This document shows positions 28,743-64,000 of a DNA stretch of 64,000 nt, piece after piece. The notes beneath the pieces are model-generated. The model saw only the letters and a list, made by a program, of their open reading frames with translations. It did not search any database and had not been told where the DNA came from. The DNA is from a virus (Duplodnaviria > Caudoviricetes). Location of the stretch: positions 10,758 to 74,757 of IMG/VR virus record IMGVR_UViG_2724679353_000001; one strand, given 5' to 3'. Numbering within the stretch: position 1 is the first letter of the stretch; every line of letters starts with the position of its first letter. The position numbers and the translations under genes were made by a program.

Positions 28743-28949
28743 ATGCAGCCATGGCAACCGGGCAAGCGCCTATTAACCGACTTCGATATTAAGATCGGCA
28801 AGTTATCAGCCAGTGTACGGAAACAACAACTCACCGACCACGATATACAGCGGGCCTGTTCTGCGACCGACAGAGCTATAACCCAAATGATACAGGGGCA
28901 AGACCATGAAAAACGACCACGACATAATCACCAAAGAGGAGATGATTGA
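28743..28949 (+). CDS. Hypothetical protein
   Basis: 68 aa ORF in the early-left operon. Confidence 0.55.
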   Translation: MQPWQPGKRLLTDFDIKIGKLSASVRKQQLTDHDIQRACSATDRAITQMIQGQDHEKRPRHNHQRGDD

Positions 28950-29142
28950 GTTGACCGGTCATCACTACAAAACCAAACAATGTGACTCTTTACGCCGCTC
29001 GGGGATCTTTTTTATCCGACGTCCGGACGGACACCCGAAAACCACTTGGGGCCATTTTTTGAATCCAGTCAGTTTGCGCGGTAAGCCGCTGGAGCCGGAA
29101 AAAGAAGAACCCAATTTCGAGGCCATGAACAGTGGCCGGTAA
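28906..29142 (+). CDS. xis: Excisionase (DUF4224-like)
   Basis: ITKEEMIELTG...Q...L...GIFF...DGHP; overlaps the int start. Confidence 0.75.
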   Translation: MKNDHDIITKEEMIELTGHHYKTKQCDSLRRSGIFFIRRPDGHPKTTWGHFLNPVSLRGKPLEPEKEEPNFEAMNSGR

Positions 29143-30148
29143 ACGCAAGAACGCCGCCGATAACTGGATGCCCTCACGGGTATTCCGTGGCCCCAGTGCT
29201 TATAACTTCAAACACCCGGACGGACGCACGATTAGACTGTGCGCACTTAACGCTACACAGGCAGAAGTCTGGGTTCATTATGAGAAGTTCATTAATGAGA
29301 AAAAAGACAAATCAACGTTAAATACCTTAGTTGAGTCTTTTTTCCGATCCGTTGATTTCATTGATCTGGCAACCGAGACACAAAAAGACTATCGAAAATA
29401 CGCCTCAAAATTATTACCGGTTTTCGGTGCCATGCACCCCGATAATATAAAACCTGAACATGTCAGAAAGTATATGGATAAAAGAGGGTTGAGCAGCAGG
29501 ACACAGGCAAACAGGGAAAAAACGTTTATGTCGCGGGCCTATAGATGGGGATATGAACGGGGATTAGTGAAAGGCAATCCCTGCAAGGGAGTTAAGCAAT
29601 TTAAAGAGGAATCGAGGGAACGCTATATTACAGATGAAGAATATAACGCTTTATATCAGACTGCACCCGACATCGTACGAGCAGCAATGGAAATAGCGTA
29701 TCTGTGTCTGGCGAGGCAAGCCGATGTGCTTTCATTGCGCAAGGATCAATTTAGAGAATCGGGGATATATATCAGGCAGGGTAAGACAGGGGCAAAACAA
29801 ATCAAGGAATGGTCACAGCGCTTACGTGACGCTATCGCACTGGCAGAATCCCTGCCCTTACAACCCGGTATCAGCAGTGTATACATCATCCGCCAACGCA
29901 CCGGACTGCGGTATACGCGCGACGGCTTTAATAGCCGATGGCGCAAGGCCAAAGAAGCAGCAAAAGAGGCACACCCTGAATTGGATTTTAATTTCACCTT
30001 CCATGATCTGAAAGCCAAAGGTGTTTCTGATCTTGAGGGTTCACTCAGTGAGAAGCAGGCGATATCAGGGCATAGAAATATGGGGCAAACGGCGCGATAT
30101 GACCGGAAAATAAAAGTTGTGCCGGTGGTAGGCAATCAGAAGAAGTGA
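29132..30148 (+). CDS. int: Tyrosine integrase of prophage 1
   Basis: ARQADV (R), KTG, FHDLKAK, SGH...TARY. Confidence 0.95.
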   Translation: MAGKRKNAADNWMPSRVFRGPSAYNFKHPDGRTIRLCALNATQAEVWVHYEKFINEKKDKSTLNTLVESFFRSVDFIDLATETQKDYRKYASKLLPVFGAMHPDNIKPEHVRKYMDKRGLSSRTQANREKTFMSRAYRWGYERGLVKGNPCKGVKQFKEESRERYITDEEYNALYQTAPDIVRAAMEIAYLCLARQADVLSLRKDQFRESGIYIRQGKTGAKQIKEWSQRLRDAIALAESLPLQPGISSVYIIRQRTGLRYTRDGFNSRWRKAKEAAKEAHPELDFNFTFHDLKAKGVSDLEGSLSEKQAISGHRNMGQTARYDRKIKVVPVVGNQKK

Positions 30149-30207: not shown

Positions 30208-30291
30208 TGTGATTTCAGGCACAAAAAAAACCCGCCTCACGGCGGTTAACGACATACTCATACTACTTTGTTTTACTTATACTATTTTCCA

Positions 30292-30462: not shown

Positions 30463-31467
30463 TCATTCAATAACTAGCTTGTCGTAGGGGTTTAATGCGA
30501 TGGCCGCATCCAAGTGGTTAGGGGCAAAATGTGCATATCTCATCGTCATTAAAATAGTGCTATGACCAAGAATTTGTTGCAGCACTAAAATGTTTCCGCC
30601 GCCCATCATAAAGTGACTAGCAAAGGTATGTCTGAGTACGTGTGTGCGTTGCCCTTTAGGCAACTCAATAGCCGCCCTTTTCAATGCATGTTTAAATGCA
30701 TCATAAGATGGAGTGAATAAAGCGCCGCGATTTTTTGGTATACGCTTAAATAGTTTTTCAGATATCGGTACGGTTCTGTTCTTTTTGCCCTTAGTATTAA
30801 TATAAGTCACACGGCTAGGCAATATCTGCGACTGTTTCATATCCTGCGCTTCTCCCCACCTAGCACCTGTAGCCAAGCAGAGGCGAACGATAGTTCCCAA
30901 ACTTTTATTTTCCGAATCATCACAGGAGACTAAAAGCCGCTTGATTTCATCTTGGGACAGAAAGGCCAGTTCTTGATCGCCCTCGCTAAATTGCCGGATA
31001 CCATCAAGCGGGTTACTTCCCTCCCACTCACCAAGGCGTTTTAATTCTGAAAATACAGCATGTAGGTATGATTGTTCGCGGTTAACAGTGGCTTCTTTTA
31101 CAACAGTACGTCCTTTTGCTTGCCATTCACCATTCAGCCGCCGTTCCCGATAAACAGCAAACATATTTTTATCGACATCTGCCGCTAAGGGTTCCCCCAT
31201 TCGCTCGCAAATAGCCAATAATTTAGTTTTACGGGACTCGCCAGAAGATAGGGTCTTACCGTGCATTTCATACCAGCGCTCAACTAATTCATTAAGTGTT
31301 ACCGCACTAACACCCAGCCCCGTATCTTGCTTATTCACCATCATGCGGCGTTCGTATGAAAGTGCTTCGCCTTTAGTGGCAAATTGTTTACGTATCCGTT
31401 TACCGTCACGGCCATAAGGGAAGCATTGGCAAAGCCATTTTCCTGAAGGGAGCTTACTAACTGCCAT
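30463..31467 (-). CDS. int: P2/186-type tyrosine integrase
   Basis: TGARWGEA, TKGKK, HVLRHTFASHF, LGH...TMRY. Confidence 0.95.
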   Translation of the reverse strand: MAVSKLPSGKWLCQCFPYGRDGKRIRKQFATKGEALSYERRMMVNKQDTGLGVSAVTLNELVERWYEMHGKTLSSGESRKTKLLAICERMGEPLAADVDKNMFAVYRERRLNGEWQAKGRTVVKEATVNREQSYLHAVFSELKRLGEWEGSNPLDGIRQFSEGDQELAFLSQDEIKRLLVSCDDSENKSLGTIVRLCLATGARWGEAQDMKQSQILPSRVTYINTKGKKNRTVPISEKLFKRIPKNRGALFTPSYDAFKHALKRAAIELPKGQRTHVLRHTFASHFMMGGGNILVLQQILGHSTILMTMRYAHFAPNHLDAAIALNPYDKLVIE

Positions 31468-31847
31468 CAGTCCTGCACCCACTTCATCATAATCATTAGC
31501 ATCATGGCGGTTGATTTAACACTTTGATTAGTAAAAATTTCTTTATTCTGAATTGGATCTGATTCTGGGGCAAAAGCATCATCAAGCTGTTTAGCTAGTT
31601 CACTCGCGTAAGGCTTAAAATCATTTACCGATTTTATTTTCCTATTAATCTCAGGCGCTAATAGCTCTTTGCTGTATACCCCAGCGATAAAGTCAGCACA
31701 AGTTGCAAGTTTGTTTTCCGGCGTGGCTGTCTGCCATGTAAGCGCATTGGCTTCATGCAGGGTTCCTCCCGCATACCAATTTTCAGCAAATGCGTTATTT
31801 GTGAATAAGGCAAAAATAAGAAACGTCAGTGACAATATCTTTTTCAT
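31467..31847 (-). CDS. Secreted/periplasmic protein in the immunity operon
   Basis: Signal peptide MKKILSLTFLIFALFTNNAFA; stop overlaps the int ATG. Confidence 0.8.
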   Translation of the reverse strand: MKKILSLTFLIFALFTNNAFAENWYAGGTLHEANALTWQTATPENKLATCADFIAGVYSKELLAPEINRKIKSVNDFKPYASELAKQLDDAFAPESDPIQNKEIFTNQSVKSTAMMLMIMMKWVQD

Positions 31848-31915
31848 CGCTAGCCCTCGATAAGGTTAAGAAGATAATTAATTAAGTATCACAATGTAAA
31901 TAATTTGAGCTTAAG

Positions 31916-32554
31916 TTATTTACTAAATGTAACTATTAAAAAAGAAATTAAAAAACCTGAAGCAAATACACTCCCAGAAAATATCGGGTAGTGGCGAAAT
32001 AGTTGCTGCCACGATAGGCGTTTTTCTGAGAGCGTCACTGTCGAAGAAGTTGCCTCTAAATATTGCTTTTCATCCAGCCACGAGAGAGCCTGTTGTAATT
32101 GCAAGCGCGTTAATTCAGTTAAACGCCCTGAACCAAACTGAATATGACAATATCGAATGAGTTGCTGCCTTTCCGATTCTTGTTGGGTATTTTTCAGGAG
32201 CAAATGTATTAAAGACTTGCTCGCCTCTTTCTCGCAATAACGATCACGTAAAGCCTGAAGATAACTATATGCAGCCTGATAGTGACTTACTGTCATTTCC
32301 TCAATGCTGCTAACACCAATCTCAGCATGAACCTTTTGCCAGATTGAAAACCCCTCTTCATGCCCGGTCTCAATAATTTCTTTTACTAGCTGATTTAACT
32401 GTTTTCGCTGTGCGGGTACTAGCGGGCGATTATCTATCTCTGTTGTAGGGATGGCGATATTCACAAAATCCCGACTAATGAAATTATCCGCAGTGATATT
32501 TTTCTCATGAAAATCACGGCCCGCCACCCTATTTTTCTCACCACTAGTCTCCAT
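31916..32554 (-). CDS. Flk-like protein with C-terminal membrane anchor and N-terminal AGRDF motif
   Basis: PLVPAQRKQL...IWQKVHAEIGV and QFGSGRLTELTRLQLQQAL resemble Flk repeats (from memory); hydrophobic C-terminus. Confidence 0.6.
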   Translation of the reverse strand: METSGEKNRVAGRDFHEKNITADNFISRDFVNIAIPTTEIDNRPLVPAQRKQLNQLVKEIIETGHEEGFSIWQKVHAEIGVSSIEEMTVSHYQAAYSYLQALRDRYCEKEASKSLIHLLLKNTQQESERQQLIRYCHIQFGSGRLTELTRLQLQQALSWLDEKQYLEATSSTVTLSEKRLSWQQLFRHYPIFSGSVFASGFLISFLIVTFSK

Positions 32555-32572
32555 GCCTACCGCTCTCCCACT

Positions 32573-32965
32573 TTACTTTTTGTTCTCGTGAAAATCTCTA
32601 CCAGCGATCCGCTGACCGGTACCACCTGTAACCTTAACTGTTGTTCCTGACTCAGGAGGATTACCCACGCTTAGTGCGGCAAATACAGCTTGCTTAACTG
32701 CAAGAGGCGCAGAACGGTAATAGCTGATCAGCTCCTCCTCATCCTTTGTTAGCGCCGCCACGGAACGAACACCTGTGACAACGAATTGAACATCAACACC
32801 CACTCTTGAAATAGCCTCAAGGTAGAGAGCATCAGGCGCACGTCCCCCTTGTTCGTACTTAAGCTGTGCTAATTTTTTAACGCCACCAATCTCGCCAAAG
32901 GCCATTTGGCTAAGACCAATACGTTCTCTTTCCTCTCGAATCCGCTCACCGATATTTGAATGCAT
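32573..32965 (-). CDS. Immunity repressor (XRE HTH, no peptidase domain)
   Basis: IGERIREERERIGLSQ...YEQGGRAPDALYL; divergent from the early operon. Confidence 0.85.
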   Translation of the reverse strand: MHSNIGERIREERERIGLSQMAFGEIGGVKKLAQLKYEQGGRAPDALYLEAISRVGVDVQFVVTGVRSVAALTKDEEELISYYRSAPLAVKQAVFAALSVGNPPESGTTVKVTGGTGQRIAGRDFHENKK

Positions 32966-32975
32966 ACAAAAACCC

Positions 32976-33004
32976 TTGACAGATATTCATTTGAATACCA
33001 AAAT
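32976..33004 (+). promoter_or_regulatory. Early promoter with palindromic operator
   Basis: TTGACA 32976; TATTCA-TT-TGAATA at 32984-32997 in the spacer. Confidence 0.6.
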
Positions 33005-33042: not shown

Positions 33043-33234
33043 ATGAAACAAGTCGAACATGATCAACGCTCGCGATTACCGAAAGGAATCGCCTCAAAAA
33101 ATCCTACCCCCATGCGTTTATCTGATGGTGAACGCTCTGAATTAGAAGCACTTGCAGCAAAAGAAAGTCGTTCAATTTCCAGTATGGCCCGCCTAGTTTA
33201 TTTGCGCGGTATCGCTGCTATTCAGGCTGATTGA
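33043..33234 (+). CDS. Ribbon-helix-helix regulator
   Basis: PMRLSDGERSELEALAAKESRSISSMAR. Confidence 0.7.
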   Translation: MKQVEHDQRSRLPKGIASKNPTPMRLSDGERSELEALAAKESRSISSMARLVYLRGIAAIQAD

Positions 33235-33246
33235 TAAGGGGAAATT

Positions 33247-33450
33247 ATGGGTAATGTCACCATTAATATCACCGTACCCACGGGCTATGTCTCTCTGAAA
33301 GAGTATGCCGTAATGACTGGTATCCCTTTCGCTACCTGCCGGGGAATGGTGCGTGATGGCCGGATTATTATTCGTCCGAAAATTAAGGCTGGTGACAAAG
33401 TTGAAGTTAATTTGGTCGCTATGTTGAAAGATGCCATAGCCAATAGTTAG
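33247..33450 (+). CDS. Cox/Apl-like regulator and excisionase
   Basis: YVSLKEYAVMTGIP...IRPK...VEVNLVA. Confidence 0.75.
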   Translation: MGNVTINITVPTGYVSLKEYAVMTGIPFATCRGMVRDGRIIIRPKIKAGDKVEVNLVAMLKDAIANS

Positions 33451-34539: not shown

Positions 34540-34737
34540 ATGACGAGTAAGAAAATTGAAAACGCTGATTTACTCAATGATGCCCTGATAAATGAACGTA
34601 GGAAACAAGCAATACTGACCTCTGAGCTTCTGGAAAATCTGGCGAATGTCATTATTGCTCGTGCTTTATGCGTTAAAGAATCGGTGGAATTGCTGCGCCA
34701 GGAATCCGATAAAATCCAAAACCAAATAAATGAGTAA
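34540..34737 (+). CDS. DUF2732-like protein
   Basis: ESVELLRQESDKI pattern; typical position upstream of dam/A. Confidence 0.6.
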   Translation: MTSKKIENADLLNDALINERRKQAILTSELLENLANVIIARALCVKESVELLRQESDKIQNQINE

Positions 34738-35569
34738 GCGGCCGATGACAATAAATCGCTCCCCGCTGAAATGGGCAGGTTCAAAGGCTCGTATTATGCC
34801 AACCTTACTTCAACATTTGCCAACCGGTAAACGACTGGTAGAGCCGTTTGCTGGTTCCTGTTCTGTAATGCTGAATACAGATTATGATGAATATTTGATA
34901 ACGGATATCAATGATGATCTGATTAACTTCTATGAAATCGCCAAAAGAGAAACGAGCGACTTAATCAATGTAGCTTCCTCACTGTTTCTTACGGCTAATT
35001 CCCACGAACAATATTATATTTTCCGCAAAATATTCAATGCACGAAACCGTGATGATATATCCAGAGCAGCAATCTTCCTTTACCTAAATCGCCACTGTTT
35101 TAATGGTATTTGTCGCTATAACCAACAAGGGCAATTTAACGCCCCCTATGGCAAGTACAAAGCGCCCTATTTCCCCGAAGCCGAGATCCGTTTCTTTGCT
35201 GAAAAATCCAAGAAAGCGACCTTCTTATGTTGTGATTTTTCCGAAGCACTGGAAATGGCTGTTGCGGGTGATGTGATTTATTGCGATCCGCCTTATATCC
35301 CAGTATCCAGCACTGCTGAGTTTACCCATTATCACACCGATGGTTTTAGCGCTGATCAGCAATTTCGTTTAGCCCGCCTACTGGCAAGGGCCGCTGAAAA
35401 TGGTTGTCACGTTGTTGCATCCAATAGTGAAACCCCTATCACCCGCGATCTCTATAGCCGCTACACTCTCCACTCGATTACGGCTCCGCGCTCTATCAGT
35501 TGTAAAAGTAATGGCAGAAAAAGCACCGGGGAAATTATTGCGACGATTCCGGCACAATTAGATGAGTGA
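34730..35569 (+). CDS. dam: Dam-family DNA adenine methyltransferase
   Basis: PLKWAGSK, LVEPFAGS, YCDPPY. Confidence 0.95.
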   Translation: MSKRPMTINRSPLKWAGSKARIMPTLLQHLPTGKRLVEPFAGSCSVMLNTDYDEYLITDINDDLINFYEIAKRETSDLINVASSLFLTANSHEQYYIFRKIFNARNRDDISRAAIFLYLNRHCFNGICRYNQQGQFNAPYGKYKAPYFPEAEIRFFAEKSKKATFLCCDFSEALEMAVAGDVIYCDPPYIPVSSTAEFTHYHTDGFSADQQFRLARLLARAAENGCHVVASNSETPITRDLYSRYTLHSITAPRSISCKSNGRKSTGEIIATIPAQLDE

Positions 35570-38117: not shown

Positions 38118-38328
38118 TTACACCGACACCATTTGCACATTATTAACCGATGAACAGCAGGTTGCTCAAATGCTGGGTGATGCATGGAATCAATACTTAC
38201 TGCTTCCGATTGAACATCCATCTGAGCGTGATGAGTTCTGCCGAGCCATTCATGATTGCCAGAGAATCATATTAGCCCGCCCGGCAATTCGTGGACTGGC
38301 GGAAAAAGGTTCGGGGTACAAAAAATGA
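38098..38328 (+). CDS. Hypothetical protein
   Basis: 76 aa; LPIEHPSERDEFCRAIH. Confidence 0.7.
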   Translation: MKATNINYTDTICTLLTDEQQVAQMLGDAWNQYLLLPIEHPSERDEFCRAIHDCQRIILARPAIRGLAEKGSGYKK

Positions 38329-38681
38329 CAACAGCAAGCGAACGTAAACGCGCCCAGCGCCAACGCGATAAAAAATTTGGCATAACTACTCTTACTCTGC
38401 GTTTGGATGCGCAGGAGTTGGCTATGGTGCTGGAGGGATGCGAACAGCGCCGCATTGCTCGCCAGCCTTATGAGGTGACCGAGTATTTAACCAGCCTAAT
38501 TCGCCAGGATAATAAGCTACTGCATAAACAACTTACCGAATTGAGGAAAAGTAGCTGTAAGCGGTGCGGGGATACGCTGCCAGGTGATAACGCTGGTTGC
38601 TGCTTGCAGGGGGATTCGGAGTGTTGGCAGACATTGGGGTACAGGCGATTGATGTTGGATACATTCAATTCATCTGGCTGA
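38325..38681 (+). CDS. Hypothetical protein, homolog of 17207..17560
   Basis: ERKRAQRQR...CKRCGDTLPGD...CWQTLG. Confidence 0.75.
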   Translation: MTTASERKRAQRQRDKKFGITTLTLRLDAQELAMVLEGCEQRRIARQPYEVTEYLTSLIRQDNKLLHKQLTELRKSSCKRCGDTLPGDNAGCCLQGDSECWQTLGYRRLMLDTFNSSG

Positions 38682-63969: not shown

Positions 63970-64000
63970 AATCTCAGGCACAAAAAAACCCCCCCCCCGC

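What the first reader, a model, noticed from the sequence alone, without database searches (positions are those of the whole stretch)
31467..32965. Candidate amyloid-like signalling switch in the P2-like immunity operon: repressor and Flk-like membrane protein share an RxAGRDFHE motif
Seen: the repressor ends TTVKVTGGTGQRIAGRDFHENKK. The next gene, 18 bp downstream, starts METSGEKNRVAGRDFHEKNITADNFISRDFVNIAI, which holds the same motif plus a second pseudo-repeat. The codons differ (cggatcgctggtagagattttcacgag vs agggtggcgggccgtgattttcatgag), so the match looks kept at protein level rather than freshly duplicated. The second protein has a C-terminal TM anchor. A signal-peptide protein follows, coupled to int. 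The repressor has no S24 peptidase, and I see no tum-like antirepressor after A. Known: a short motif shared by the C-terminus of one protein and the N-terminus of its neighbour is the architecture of amyloid signalling pairs (HET-s/NWD2, bacterial BASS motifs). Inference: a periplasmic sensor and membrane transducer could capture or polymerise the repressor through this motif, giving SOS-independent, envelope-triggered control of lysogeny.
Basis: partly seen in the sequence, partly recalled or inferred. Interest (0 to 1): 0.88.

Follow-up and report, generated by a model that had tools for sequence, protein, structure and literature searches.

The report
Phage repressor matched to membrane partner
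A prophage repressor ends in a short motif that is repeated at the start of the neighbouring membrane protein, and the two copies change together across many phages, which points to an undescribed way of coupling the lysogeny switch to the cell membrane.

Summary
The 130-aa XRE repressor (32573-32965, -) ends ...QRIAGRDFHENKK. The next gene, 18 bp downstream (31916-32554, -), starts ...NRVAGRDFHEKN and ends in a membrane anchor.

The match is far above chance and is kept at protein level only: 478 shared residues in 46 pairs use the same codon 208 times, against 208.6 expected.

Most importantly, the pairing is general. In P2-like and Mu-like phages of Yersinia, Klebsiella, Pectobacterium, Pseudomonas, Burkholderia and Ralstonia, the repressor tail and the N-terminus of the downstream membrane protein carry the same motif. 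The motif itself differs between clades (25 tail classes; own versus permuted partners, 0 of 10,000).

Both motifs lie in predicted disordered termini. The partners differ in architecture (Flk_N tail-anchored, Flk_N plus a periplasmic domain, or 2-TM hairpins), but nearly all keep the motif and a membrane segment.

Amyloid-type assembly is plausible but untested.

My best reading is homotypic motif pairing that docks the repressor to a cognate membrane partner. I found no description of this in print.

The parts
30212..30236 (.). Probable prophage attachment repeat, left copy. The right copy is at 63971-63995.
   Evidence: A 25-nt direct repeat, 88% identical, 33,759 nt apart. It brackets int through the structural genes.
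30463..31482 (-). Tyrosine integrase, last gene of the immunity-side operon.
   Evidence: Pfam Int_N 2.4e-31 and Phage_integrase 4.3e-24. PHROG 1.
31467..31847 (-). 126-aa protein with a hydrophobic N-terminus. It is variable cargo and not a conserved part of the pair.
   Evidence: PHROG 23065, unknown function. No Pfam or PADLOC hit. This slot holds different genes in related loci.
31916..32554 (-). Partner: 212-aa Flk_N-family tail-anchored inner-membrane protein.
   Evidence: PHROG 5825 at 3.3e-85. PF27202 Flk_N. AF2 mean pLDDT 76.
31928..31984 (-). C-terminal transmembrane anchor of the partner (residues 191-209).
   Evidence: Hydropathy 1.99 over 19 residues. AF2 helix 190-211. F197 and G200 are invariant in 26 homologues.
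32039..32446 (-). Helical cytoplasmic Flk_N domain of the partner (residues about 37-172).
   Evidence: NCBIfam Flk matches residues 37-165. AF2 helices 47-172 with pLDDT 82-93. No PDB fold match at E <= 0.001.
32450..32476 (-). Second pseudo-repeat of the partner (S27-I35, SRDFVNIAI).
   Evidence: Read. N32 is invariant and I33 nearly invariant. MAFFT aligns it with the single motif of non-enterobacterial partners.
32504..32533 (-). N-terminal motif of the partner (N8-E17, NRVAGRDFHE).
   Evidence: N8, G12, D14 and E17 are invariant; R9, R13 and F15 are at least 90% conserved in 26 homologues. The segment is predicted disordered (pLDDT < 50).
32573..32965 (-). Immunity repressor candidate: XRE HTH, two helices and a disordered tail.
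   Evidence: PHROG 8 at 8e-11 and PHROGs 4 and 2328 'transcriptional repressor'. AF2 helices 5-64 and 74-100, tail pLDDT about 51. It is divergent from the Arc-like and Cox-like genes.
32585..32614 (-). C-terminal motif of the repressor (Q118-E127, QRIAGRDFHE), followed by NKK.
   Evidence: A121 and G122 are at least 90% conserved in 65 homologues. 72 of 113 located tails carry an AG[RQ]D-type motif and 97 of 113 end in basic residues.
32976..33004 (+). Promoter-like site for the divergent early (lytic) operon.
   Evidence: TTGACA-17-CAAAAT, 10 of 12 matches. This is a consensus match only.
33043..33450 (+). Early genes: Arc-like RHH (33043-33234) and Cox-like excisionase/repressor (33247-33450).
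   Evidence: PHROG 3431 at 2.9e-25 and PHROG 575 at 1.1e-24.

Best explanation
This is a cognate two-protein module of temperate phages. The immunity repressor has an XRE HTH, a helical pair and a disordered Gly/Asn/Ser-rich tail that ends in Lys/Arg. It is co-transcribed with an inner-membrane protein whose disordered cytoplasmic N-terminus carries the same short motif.

I propose that the two motifs pair directly and in register (homotypic, parallel beta stacking). The partner would then dock or capture repressor molecules at the membrane and so set or switch the pool of free repressor. That would give a LexA-independent, membrane-linked input into the lysogeny switch.

The motif differs between phage clades. 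It would therefore act as a specificity code that keeps co-resident prophages from cross-talking.

**Shown:** the motif pair, its protein-level conservation, its co-variation, disorder of both termini, and a membrane segment in nearly all partners.

**Inferred:** physical binding, in-register geometry, the effect on repression, and the direction of that effect (induction versus buffering).
For: 1. **The pair is conserved.** In 12 genome loci with context, a tail-bearing repressor sits directly upstream of the Flk_N gene in 12 of 12. Both motifs are intact in 11 of 12.

2. **Co-variation across classes.**
- Among 66 unique repressor/downstream-ORF pairs from 98 loci, tail and N-terminus are similar at z >= 3 in 54. 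In 50, no shuffle out of 300 reached the observed score.
- Across 25 non-redundant tail classes, the own-partner score sum is 996 against 616 +/- 48 for permuted partners (0 of 10,000). The own partner is the best match in 9 of 25.
- Examples: KS5 gp11/gp12, phiE255 gp46/gp47, RsoM1USA, L064, L067, L083, L090.

3. **Fine-scale co-variation within the AGRD class (34 unique pairs).** Total identity is 318 against 291 for permuted partners (0 of 2000). The aromatic position after RD matches in 25 pairs against 15.2 (0 of 2000).

4. **Protein-level selection, not gene conversion.** Same codon at 208 of 478 identical residues, with 208.6 expected.

5. **Similarity rather than complementarity.** This is what in-register stacking needs. 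The repressor body is conserved across classes (20 invariant columns) while the tails are unalignable. That argues against the body being the class-specific receptor.

6. **The partners' common features.** Their architectures differ (Flk_N plus anchor; Flk_N plus TM plus periplasmic Cys domain; 2-TM hairpins; a Zn-ribbon plus 2-TM protein). Even so, 62 of 66 have a membrane segment.

7. **Disorder and composition.** Both motifs lie in low-confidence, unstructured termini. Tails are G 16%, N 9.5%, S 10% and L 0.7%.

8. **No alternative induction route seen.** No S24 domain, no LexA box in the prophage and no DinI/Tum-like hit.
Against: - No binding was tested.
- Repressor and partner are co-expressed from one operon, so simple constitutive sequestration would undermine repression. 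A trigger or a stoichiometric argument is needed and none is identified.
- Type A and type C partners have almost no periplasmic part with which to sense anything.
- 12 of 66 unique pairs show no significant similarity:
  - two Pseudomonas Mu-like loci (L014, L088), where the downstream gene is a secreted protein. In the complete Komp_PAO1_1 genome, from which L014 comes, no partner is found anywhere;
  - two repressors without the Gly/Asn-rich tail motif (L094, L095);
  - one frameshifted tail (L025);
  - one decayed symbiont copy (L011);
  - L017, L045, L058, L080 and L092/L096, which are weak or need gaps.
- So the tail can exist without a partner, and a prophage can persist without the tail.
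- The permutation tests do not correct for shared ancestry.
- That the 130-aa protein is the immunity repressor rests on position and family, not on experiment.
Confidence: 0.5

Rival explanations
1. Competitive mimicry. The partner's N-terminus imitates the repressor tail, and both compete for one third site. That site could be a protease or adaptor that reads the tail, or a tail-docking surface used for repressor oligomerisation. The partner would then act as a decoy or gatekeeper without the two motifs touching each other.
For: - Mimicry also predicts similarity and co-variation of the two motifs.
- Tails end in Lys/Arg-rich termini in 97 of 113 cases. This is reminiscent of C-terminal protease tags (recalled, not tested).
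- Tails exist without partners in L014, L088 and L099, so the tail has a function of its own.
Against: - A host factor would not drive different motif classes among phages of one host genus. Pectobacterium, Serratia and Pseudomonas each show several classes.
- The repressor body is highly conserved while the tails diverge, so it is a poor class-specific receptor.
- Type C partners lack the Flk_N domain, so that domain cannot be the common receptor either.
Confidence: 0.2
2. Defence or abortive-infection effector. As in NLR/Bell or NWD2/HET-S pairs, the repressor (or its release from DNA) templates the membrane protein into an active, membrane-damaging form. The module would then kill or arrest the cell, or exclude superinfecting phage, rather than regulate lysogeny.
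For: - The C-terminus/N-terminus motif architecture is the same as in amyloid cell-death pairs (Dyrka et al. 2020 preprint, passages read).
- All partners are membrane proteins. Some are small 2-TM hairpins.
- The module sits in the lysogen-expressed operon next to a variable cargo slot. In L007-L009 that slot holds a PADLOC candidate (PDC-S48, 1.4e-8).
Against: - No PADLOC model matches the partner or its relatives.
- The conserved soluble Flk_N domain resembles no pore former or enzyme.
- Host Flk is an inhibitor of a secretion switch, not a toxin (passages of PMC13344023).
- Here the motif-bearing 'sensor' is a DNA-binding repressor with no NTPase.
Confidence: 0.12
3. No functional coupling. 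The two proteins carry the same motif for independent reasons, for example a common localisation or folding signal. Adjacency would then be only operon history.
For: - No interaction data exist.
- Some tails lack partners, and one partner persists beside a frameshifted tail (L025).
Against: - Independent use does not predict class-by-class co-variation of the two copies within each phage.
- It does not predict the strict adjacency in 12 of 12 genome loci.
- It does not predict retention of the motif on partners of unrelated architecture.
Confidence: 0.08
4. Chance resemblance, or the neutral remnant of a recent local duplication.
For: The motif is short: 9-12 residues in the window.
Against: - z = 9.9, with 0 of 300 shuffles reaching the score.
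- The motif is invariant or nearly invariant in both families.
- Synonymous sites are fully randomised: 208 against 208.6.
- The same relation recurs in many unrelated motif classes.
Confidence: 0.02

Closest known systems
Amyloid signalling pairs (fungal NWD2/HET-S; bacterial BASS motifs in Bell/NLR pairs, Dyrka et al. 2020)
   Same: - A short motif at the C-terminus of one protein and the N-terminus of the protein encoded by the adjacent gene.
- Several unrelated motif families that co-vary within pairs.
- G/N/Q/S-rich, Leu-poor segments outside the folded domains.
- One partner is membrane-directed.

   Different: - No NLR/STAND NTPase, Bell or HeLo domain, and no Pfam RHIM, HET-s or PP match.
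- The carriers are a phage repressor and a Flk_N or 2-TM membrane protein.
- The hosts are unicellular Proteobacteria and their phages. BASS was reported mainly in multicellular Actinobacteria and Cyanobacteria (abstract and passages).
- The preprint contains neither 'phage' nor 'HTH' (0 occurrences each).
- Fibril formation is untested here.
- The BASS logos are in figures and supplements that I could not see.
Flk (Fluke/RflH) of Salmonella and E. coli
   Same: - Homologous Flk_N helical domain (NCBIfam NF007987, E 7.7e-16, residues 37-165; PF27202).
- A cytoplasmic protein held by a single C-terminal membrane anchor.
- It acts as a membrane-anchored inhibitor of a cytoplasmic switch.
   Different: - The score of 58 bits is far below the 353-bit equivalog cut-off.
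- The partner is 212 aa against 333 aa.
- Flk-type sequences (26 of the 150 best representatives) start MQP... with a Pro/Gly-rich N-terminus and lack the motif. The profile match starts only at about position 27.
- Flk has no repressor neighbour, and it acts on flagellar type III export.
Membrane sequestration of transcription factors (anti-sigma factors; Mlc held by PtsG) - recalled, not from a call
   Same: A regulator is co-encoded with, or controlled by, a membrane protein that holds it away from DNA. Some partners have a periplasmic domain (type B).
   Different: Those systems use complementary folded interfaces, not identical short motifs on both proteins. No proteolytic cascade components are encoded next to the pair.
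Phage antirepressors (P22 Ant, 186 Tum, Gifsy antirepressors; RstC, which aggregates RstR of CTX phage - the last recalled, not from a call)
   Same: - Non-proteolytic inactivation of a repressor that lacks an S24 domain.
- Weak PHROG hits of the Flk_N region to Ant families (phrog_245 at 3.3e-5, phrog_2127 at 3.2e-5) and of KS5 gp12 to ORF6C (E 0.046).
   Different: - Known antirepressors are soluble and are expressed from separately controlled (often LexA-controlled) promoters.
- Here the candidate is membrane-bound and sits in the repressor's own operon.
- It shares a motif with its target.
Lambda cI-rexA-rexB immunity operon
   Same: A repressor is co-transcribed with a membrane protein in the lysogen. 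RexA and RexB were reported to modulate the lysogenic-lytic transition (title and abstract of 10.1101/2021.04.19.439022, seen in the listing).
   Different: There is no sequence relation and no shared terminal motif. RexB is a polytopic membrane protein and RexA is a separate soluble sensor.

Membership tests
Amyloid signalling motif pair (BASS / HET-s type) | The same short motif at the C-terminus of one protein and the N-terminus of the adjacent gene's product | tested here: met
   in the window z = 9.9; 54 of 66 unique pairs have z >= 3.
Amyloid signalling motif pair (BASS / HET-s type) | Motif families diversify but stay matched within a pair | tested here: met
   (996 against 616 +/- 48, 0 of 10,000). 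(318 against 291, 0 of 2000). (codons random). Shared ancestry is not corrected for.
Amyloid signalling motif pair (BASS / HET-s type) | The receptor is an NLR/STAND NTPase (NB-ARC or NACHT) carrying the N-terminal motif | tested here: not met
   Pfam scans of the window proteins and of 9 diverse partners show no NTPase domain. The N-terminal motif sits on Flk_N or 2-TM membrane proteins.
Amyloid signalling motif pair (BASS / HET-s type) | The effector carries a Bell/HeLo-type domain, or the motif matches Pfam RHIM, HET-s or PP models | tested here: not met
   No such Pfam hit at E <= 0.1 or E <= 1. The G-phi-Q-phi-G core named is not the conserved core here.
Amyloid signalling motif pair (BASS / HET-s type) | The motif forms cross-beta fibrils and templates its partner | not testable with these tools
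   This needs ThT, EM, ssNMR or prion assays.
Flk (NCBIfam NF007987 equivalog) | Whole-protein score above the curated cut-off | tested here: not met
   58.3 bits against a cut-off of 353.
Pfam PF27202 Flk_N domain family | Flk_N domain present | tested here: met
   A precomputed PF27202 annotation is on all 120 listed homologues. The Atlas cluster is 100% Flk_N at score 0.96. The model is not in the local Pfam copy, so I did not score it myself.
Tail-anchored membrane protein | A single hydrophobic helix at the extreme C-terminus, with the rest cytoplasmic | tested here: met
   Hydropathy at residues 191-209. AF2 helix 190-211. Topology is inferred.
P2-type immunity repressor (C-like position, XRE HTH, no autocleavage) | HTH DNA-binding domain; gene divergent from the cox-like early operon and upstream of int | tested here: met
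   PHROG 8 at 8e-11. AF2 five-helix N-domain. Gene order. The Pfam HTH_3 score of 16.8 is below the cut-off of 23.
LexA/CI-type autocleaving repressor | S24 peptidase domain | tested here: not met
   No Peptidase_S24 hit. The protein is only 130 aa with a disordered tail.
Phage antirepressor (Ant / ORF6C) | A significant match to antirepressor families | tested here: inconclusive
   phrog_245 at 3.3e-5 and phrog_2127 at 3.2e-5 over residues about 38-158. ORF6C at E 0.046 in KS5 gp12. No fold match.

The most novel reading that the evidence does not exclude
Temperate phages of Proteobacteria use a prion-like cross-beta switch to control lysogeny. Repressor tails and the N-termini of their membrane partners would co-polymerise by templated in-register stacking. 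A nucleation event at the membrane would then flip the cell cooperatively and irreversibly from repression to induction (or to cell death).

The many motif classes would be immunity-specific 'seeding codes' that prevent cross-seeding between co-resident prophages.

This would extend amyloid signalling from NLR immunity in multicellular microbes to viral gene regulation in unicellular bacteria.
Probability: 0.25. Interest if true: 0.92.

Novelty: new variant of a known kind. Interest (0 to 1): 0.8.

Why it matters
How P2-like and many Mu-like prophages that lack a cleavable repressor are induced is largely unknown.

A conserved, co-varying coupling between the repressor and a cognate membrane protein gives that question a concrete, testable handle. 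It suggests a LexA-independent, membrane-linked input into the lysogeny decision.

It would also be the first matched-terminal-motif pair outside NLR/effector immunity systems. And it suggests a possible prophage link for the poorly understood flagellar regulator Flk.

The motif classes could serve as orthogonal, genetically encodable protein-docking tags.

Tried and rejected
Nothing was folded and I made no substitute attempt.
- **Fold search** of the partner model against PDB found nothing at E <= 0.001. The best hit had E 0.89. Short local hits to 80alpha Sak and the Red-beta C-domain are not significant.
- **Fused repressor-partner proteins.**
  - The 'longer' search found one 242-aa protein. 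It is a repressor with an unrelated N-terminal extension, probably a mis-called start.
  - In the 150 best Flk_N representatives, the match always starts within the first 71 residues.
  - This is weak evidence that no fusions exist.
- **Partner elsewhere in Komp_PAO1_1:** none found.
- **RNA evidence.** Contigs of two RNA libraries from one study cover a close relative's repressor and partner. One 1608-nt contig spans 31942-33450. Contigs cannot show transcription, strand or operon structure, so this supports nothing.
- **PADLOC:** no hit for the partner, the 126-aa protein or two other partner types.
- **Pfam on 9 diverse partners:** nothing above threshold.
- **A partner-centred scan** of viral contigs with a diverse alignment failed because no block was conserved enough.
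- **Literature searches** found no description of the pair:
  - amyloid signaling + prophage + repressor, 0 papers;
  - listing, and passages of two of its papers;
  -, and the KS5 paper passages, which only annotate gp11 'repressor' and gp12 'membrane protein';
  - (listings only);
  -, a motif-string search that returned only typographical noise.
- **Limits of the library.** Subscription journals are not in it. Supplements were closed, so the BASS pair tables could not be checked.
Full report
**1. What is in the window**

The region lies at the left end of a P2-like prophage of about 33.8 kb. A 25-nt direct repeat at 30212-30236 and 63971-63995 brackets it.

On the minus strand, one gene string runs as follows:
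- a 130-aa repressor candidate (32573-32965);
- an 18-nt gap;
- a 212-aa protein (31916-32554);
- a 126-aa protein with a hydrophobic N-terminus (31467-31847);
- the integrase (30463-31482), whose start is overlapped by 16 nt.

Divergently, behind a promoter-like site, lie an Arc-like RHH gene and a Cox-like gene. An A-type replication gene follows further on.

The repressor ends ...GGTGQRIAGRDFHENKK. The next protein begins METSGEKNRVAGRDFHEKN..., followed by a weaker second copy (SRDFVNIAI).

**2. More than chance, and kept at protein level**

The tail against the N-terminus scores 56 by Smith-Waterman, z = 9.9. None of 300 shuffles reached it.

In 26 homologues of the 212-aa protein, N8, G12, D14 and E17 are invariant, and R9, R13 and F15 are nearly so. 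Of 113 repressor homologues whose tail could be delimited, 72 carry an AG[RQ]D-type motif.

Over 46 unique pairs, the two motif copies share 478 identical residues. They use the same codon 208 times, against 208.6 expected from the codon usage of the two genes. Synonymous sites are fully randomised. Selection on the peptide maintains the likeness, not recent duplication or gene conversion.

**3. The decisive result: the two motifs co-vary**

Genome loci (13 loci, 12 with upstream context) show a tail-bearing repressor directly upstream of the Flk-like gene in 12 of 12. Both motifs are intact in 11 of 12.

Repressor-centred loci came from viral contigs (445 relatives found, the best 80 kept) and from annotated phages. 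They show that the repressor family carries many unrelated tail types. In each case, the N-terminus of the gene immediately downstream carries the same type:

| Phage or locus | Repressor tail | Partner N-terminus |
|---|---|---|
| Burkholderia phage KS5, gp11/gp12 | ...QNFEGASIGQQVTGDV... | MNQKFDGEIGQVAGGDV... |
| Mu-like phiE255, gp46/gp47 | ...QVFHGSVGQAV... | ...QEFNRSVGQAI... |
| L064 | ...KQVFHGAVSGGVAARDIINN... | MQEFQGNVDGGVAGRDIVNQ... |
| L067 | ...PQIFNGDISGQFAGNQIINN... | MRQEFNGTAQGQFSSRDIINI... |
| L090 | ...TQHINSSGGQVAGRNIINK... | ...TQEINRNDGQVAGRDINNY... |

In numbers:
- 98 loci gave 68 unique tail/N-terminus combinations, 66 of them with a downstream ORF. Of these, 54 have z >= 3, and in 50 no shuffle out of 300 reached the score.
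- After reduction to 25 non-redundant tail classes, the summed own-partner score is 996 against 616 +/- 48 for permuted partners (0 of 10,000). The own partner is the single best match in 9 of 25.
- Within the enterobacterial AGRD class (34 unique pairs), own pairs share 318 identities against 291 for permuted pairs (0 of 2000). The aromatic residue after R-D (F, Y or I) matches in 25 pairs against 15.2 expected (0 of 2000).

These permutations do not correct for shared ancestry. The class-level signal, however, spans motifs that cannot be aligned with one another.

**4. The exceptions**

Twelve of the 66 unique pairs fall below z = 3:
- L014 and L088 (Pseudomonas Mu-like): the downstream gene is a secreted protein. 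In the complete genome of phage Komp_PAO1_1, from which L014 comes, no partner occurs anywhere.
- L094 and L095: repressors whose C-termini lack the Gly/Asn-rich motif.
- L025: a frameshift replaces the tail.
- L011: a decaying insect-symbiont copy. The partner has lost its N-terminus and the repressor motif reads AGNNF.
- L017, L045, L058, L080 and L092/L096: the likeness is visible but needs a gap or is weak.

So the tail can exist without a partner, and a prophage can persist without the tail.

**5. Anatomy of the two proteins**

*Repressor (AlphaFold2, 65-sequence alignment, mean pLDDT 82).*
- A five-helix HTH domain (residues 5-64).
- Two helices (74-100), including the near-invariant APLAVKAA segment.
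- A tail (101-130) with pLDDT about 51.
- Tails are 16% Gly, 9.5% Asn, 10% Ser and only 0.7% Leu. In 97 of 113 they end in Lys/Arg.
- There is no S24 peptidase.

*Partner (26-sequence alignment, mean pLDDT 76).*
- Residues 1-40 are unstructured, with pLDDT < 50.
- A helical domain at 44-172 has pLDDT 82-93.
- A terminal helix at 190-211 coincides with the hydropathy peak.
- The helical domain is Pfam Flk_N (PF27202). It matches NCBIfam Flk at E 7.7e-16 but far below the equivalog cut-off.
- It has no significant PDB fold neighbour.

*Partner architectures across loci.*
- A: Flk_N plus a C-terminal anchor.
- B: Flk_N plus a long helix, a TM segment and a small periplasmic domain with two conserved Cys (Burkholderia, Ralstonia and others).
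- C: short proteins with a 2-TM hairpin. One of them has a zinc ribbon.

The common features are the matched N-terminal motif and, in 62 of 66, a membrane segment. Flk_N is detected in 55 of 66.

*Breadth of the family.* A profile search of 1.84 billion representatives found 349 Flk_N clusters at E <= 0.001. Of the 150 best, 107 start with such a motif by my own regular expressions. Another 26 are Flk-proper-like (MQP..., Pro/Gly-rich, 330-490 aa) and lack it.

**6. What does not belong**

The 126-aa signal-peptide protein is cargo. The slot between the partner and int holds unrelated genes of 73-291 aa, or nothing, in the 12 related loci. Only L001 shares the window's type. One alternative cargo matches a PADLOC candidate.

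**7. Mechanism**

Partners that evolve to resemble each other, rather than to complement each other, have two main explanations:
- the motifs stack on each other in register, as in parallel cross-beta assemblies;
- both motifs bind one common site (mimicry).

A host-encoded common site does not explain several motif classes among phages of one host genus. The conserved repressor body is a poor class-specific receptor. The Flk_N domain is absent from type C partners.

I therefore favour direct homotypic pairing that docks the repressor to its cognate membrane partner, with confidence 0.5. Mimicry is the main rival at 0.2. An effector or abortive-infection reading modelled on NLR/Bell pairs follows at 0.12.

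The following remain inferences:
- whether the assembly is a small complex or a templated polymer;
- whether capture causes induction, or buffers or localises the repressor;
- what the trigger is.

Co-expression from one operon argues against simple constitutive sequestration.

The prophage shows no LexA box. No DinI/Tum-like domain was found in the five ORFs after the A-like gene. This is consistent with, but does not prove, an SOS-independent route.

**8. Comparison with what is known**

- The architecture equals that of amyloid signalling pairs. Membership fails on the carriers: there is no NLR, no Bell or HeLo domain, and no RHIM, HET-s or PP match.
- The BASS preprint reports such motifs mainly in multicellular Actinobacteria and Cyanobacteria. 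It mentions neither phage nor HTH (abstract and passages).
- A 2025 detection paper does not mention phage or repressor (passages).
- The KS5 genome paper lists gp11 'repressor' and gp12 'membrane protein' without comment (passages).
- Five further searches found no description of a repressor and membrane-protein motif pair (listings only).
- Supplements were closed, so the BASS pair tables could not be checked.

**9. Verdict**

It is a widespread, co-varying and apparently undescribed repressor/membrane-partner module of P2-like and Mu-like phages.

The matched-motif coupling holds. The periplasmic sensor does not. Amyloid behaviour and the direction of control remain open.

Interest is 0.8.

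Noticed in passing
window 28906-30148: A second tyrosine-type integrase ORF (29132-30148, +) follows a small ORF (28906-29142, +). Both lie just outside the left repeat of the P2-like prophage. This suggests two mobile elements in tandem at one site. ARAGORN finds no tRNA in the window.
   Followed up: no
window 30212-30236 and 63971-63995: A 25-nt direct repeat (88% identical), 33,759 nt apart. These are the likely attL and attR of the prophage.
   Followed up: partly
L001-L012, between the partner gene and int: This slot is a variable cargo position. It holds unrelated genes of 73-291 aa, or none. The 291-aa gene of L007-L009 matches PADLOC candidate PDC-S48 at 1.4e-8. It may be a defence or moron hotspot of this P2-like clade.
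   Followed up: partly
L025:2501-2886 (protein P0133): A natural repressor variant (named Yersinia pseudotuberculosis by its source). A frameshift replaces the motif tail and the ORF runs into the partner's start. The partner keeps its motif.
   Followed up: no
L011 (Candidatus Symbiopectobacterium): In a decaying symbiont genome, the repressor motif reads AGNNF, the partner has lost its N-terminal motif, and int is split. Both sides of the pair appear to decay together.
   Followed up: no
L015-L018, L058, L064, L077, L080, L089 (partner C-termini): Type B partners share a small periplasmic segment with two Cys (pattern C-x-F/Y-x-G-x-x-Y/F...G...C), across Burkholderia and Ralstonia phages and unnamed viral contigs. 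The only family hit is a weak DUF1496 match (E 0.13). It could be a sensing domain.
   Followed up: partly
P0276, P0284, P0293 and other 330-490-aa proteins: Host Flk-type proteins form a motif-less, longer minority (26 of the 150 best) of a family whose other members start with a repressor-type motif. Host Flk may derive from a prophage gene.
   Followed up: no
window 34730-35569: A 279-aa ORF in the early operon contains a DPPY motif typical of Dam-type adenine methyltransferases. I read this in the translation and did not scan it.
   Followed up: no
L015 (Ralstonia phage RsoM1USA): The repressor is annotated only as a misc_feature 'similar to XRE family transcriptional regulator'. An IS (InsA/InsAB') is inserted directly upstream. 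This may bear on the phage's life style.
   Followed up: no
window 38256-38681: The ORF directly after the A-like gene matches PHROG 536 'transcriptional regulator' (5.9e-39) but no Pfam family. It sits where phage 186 carries tum (position recalled, not from a call).
   Followed up: partly
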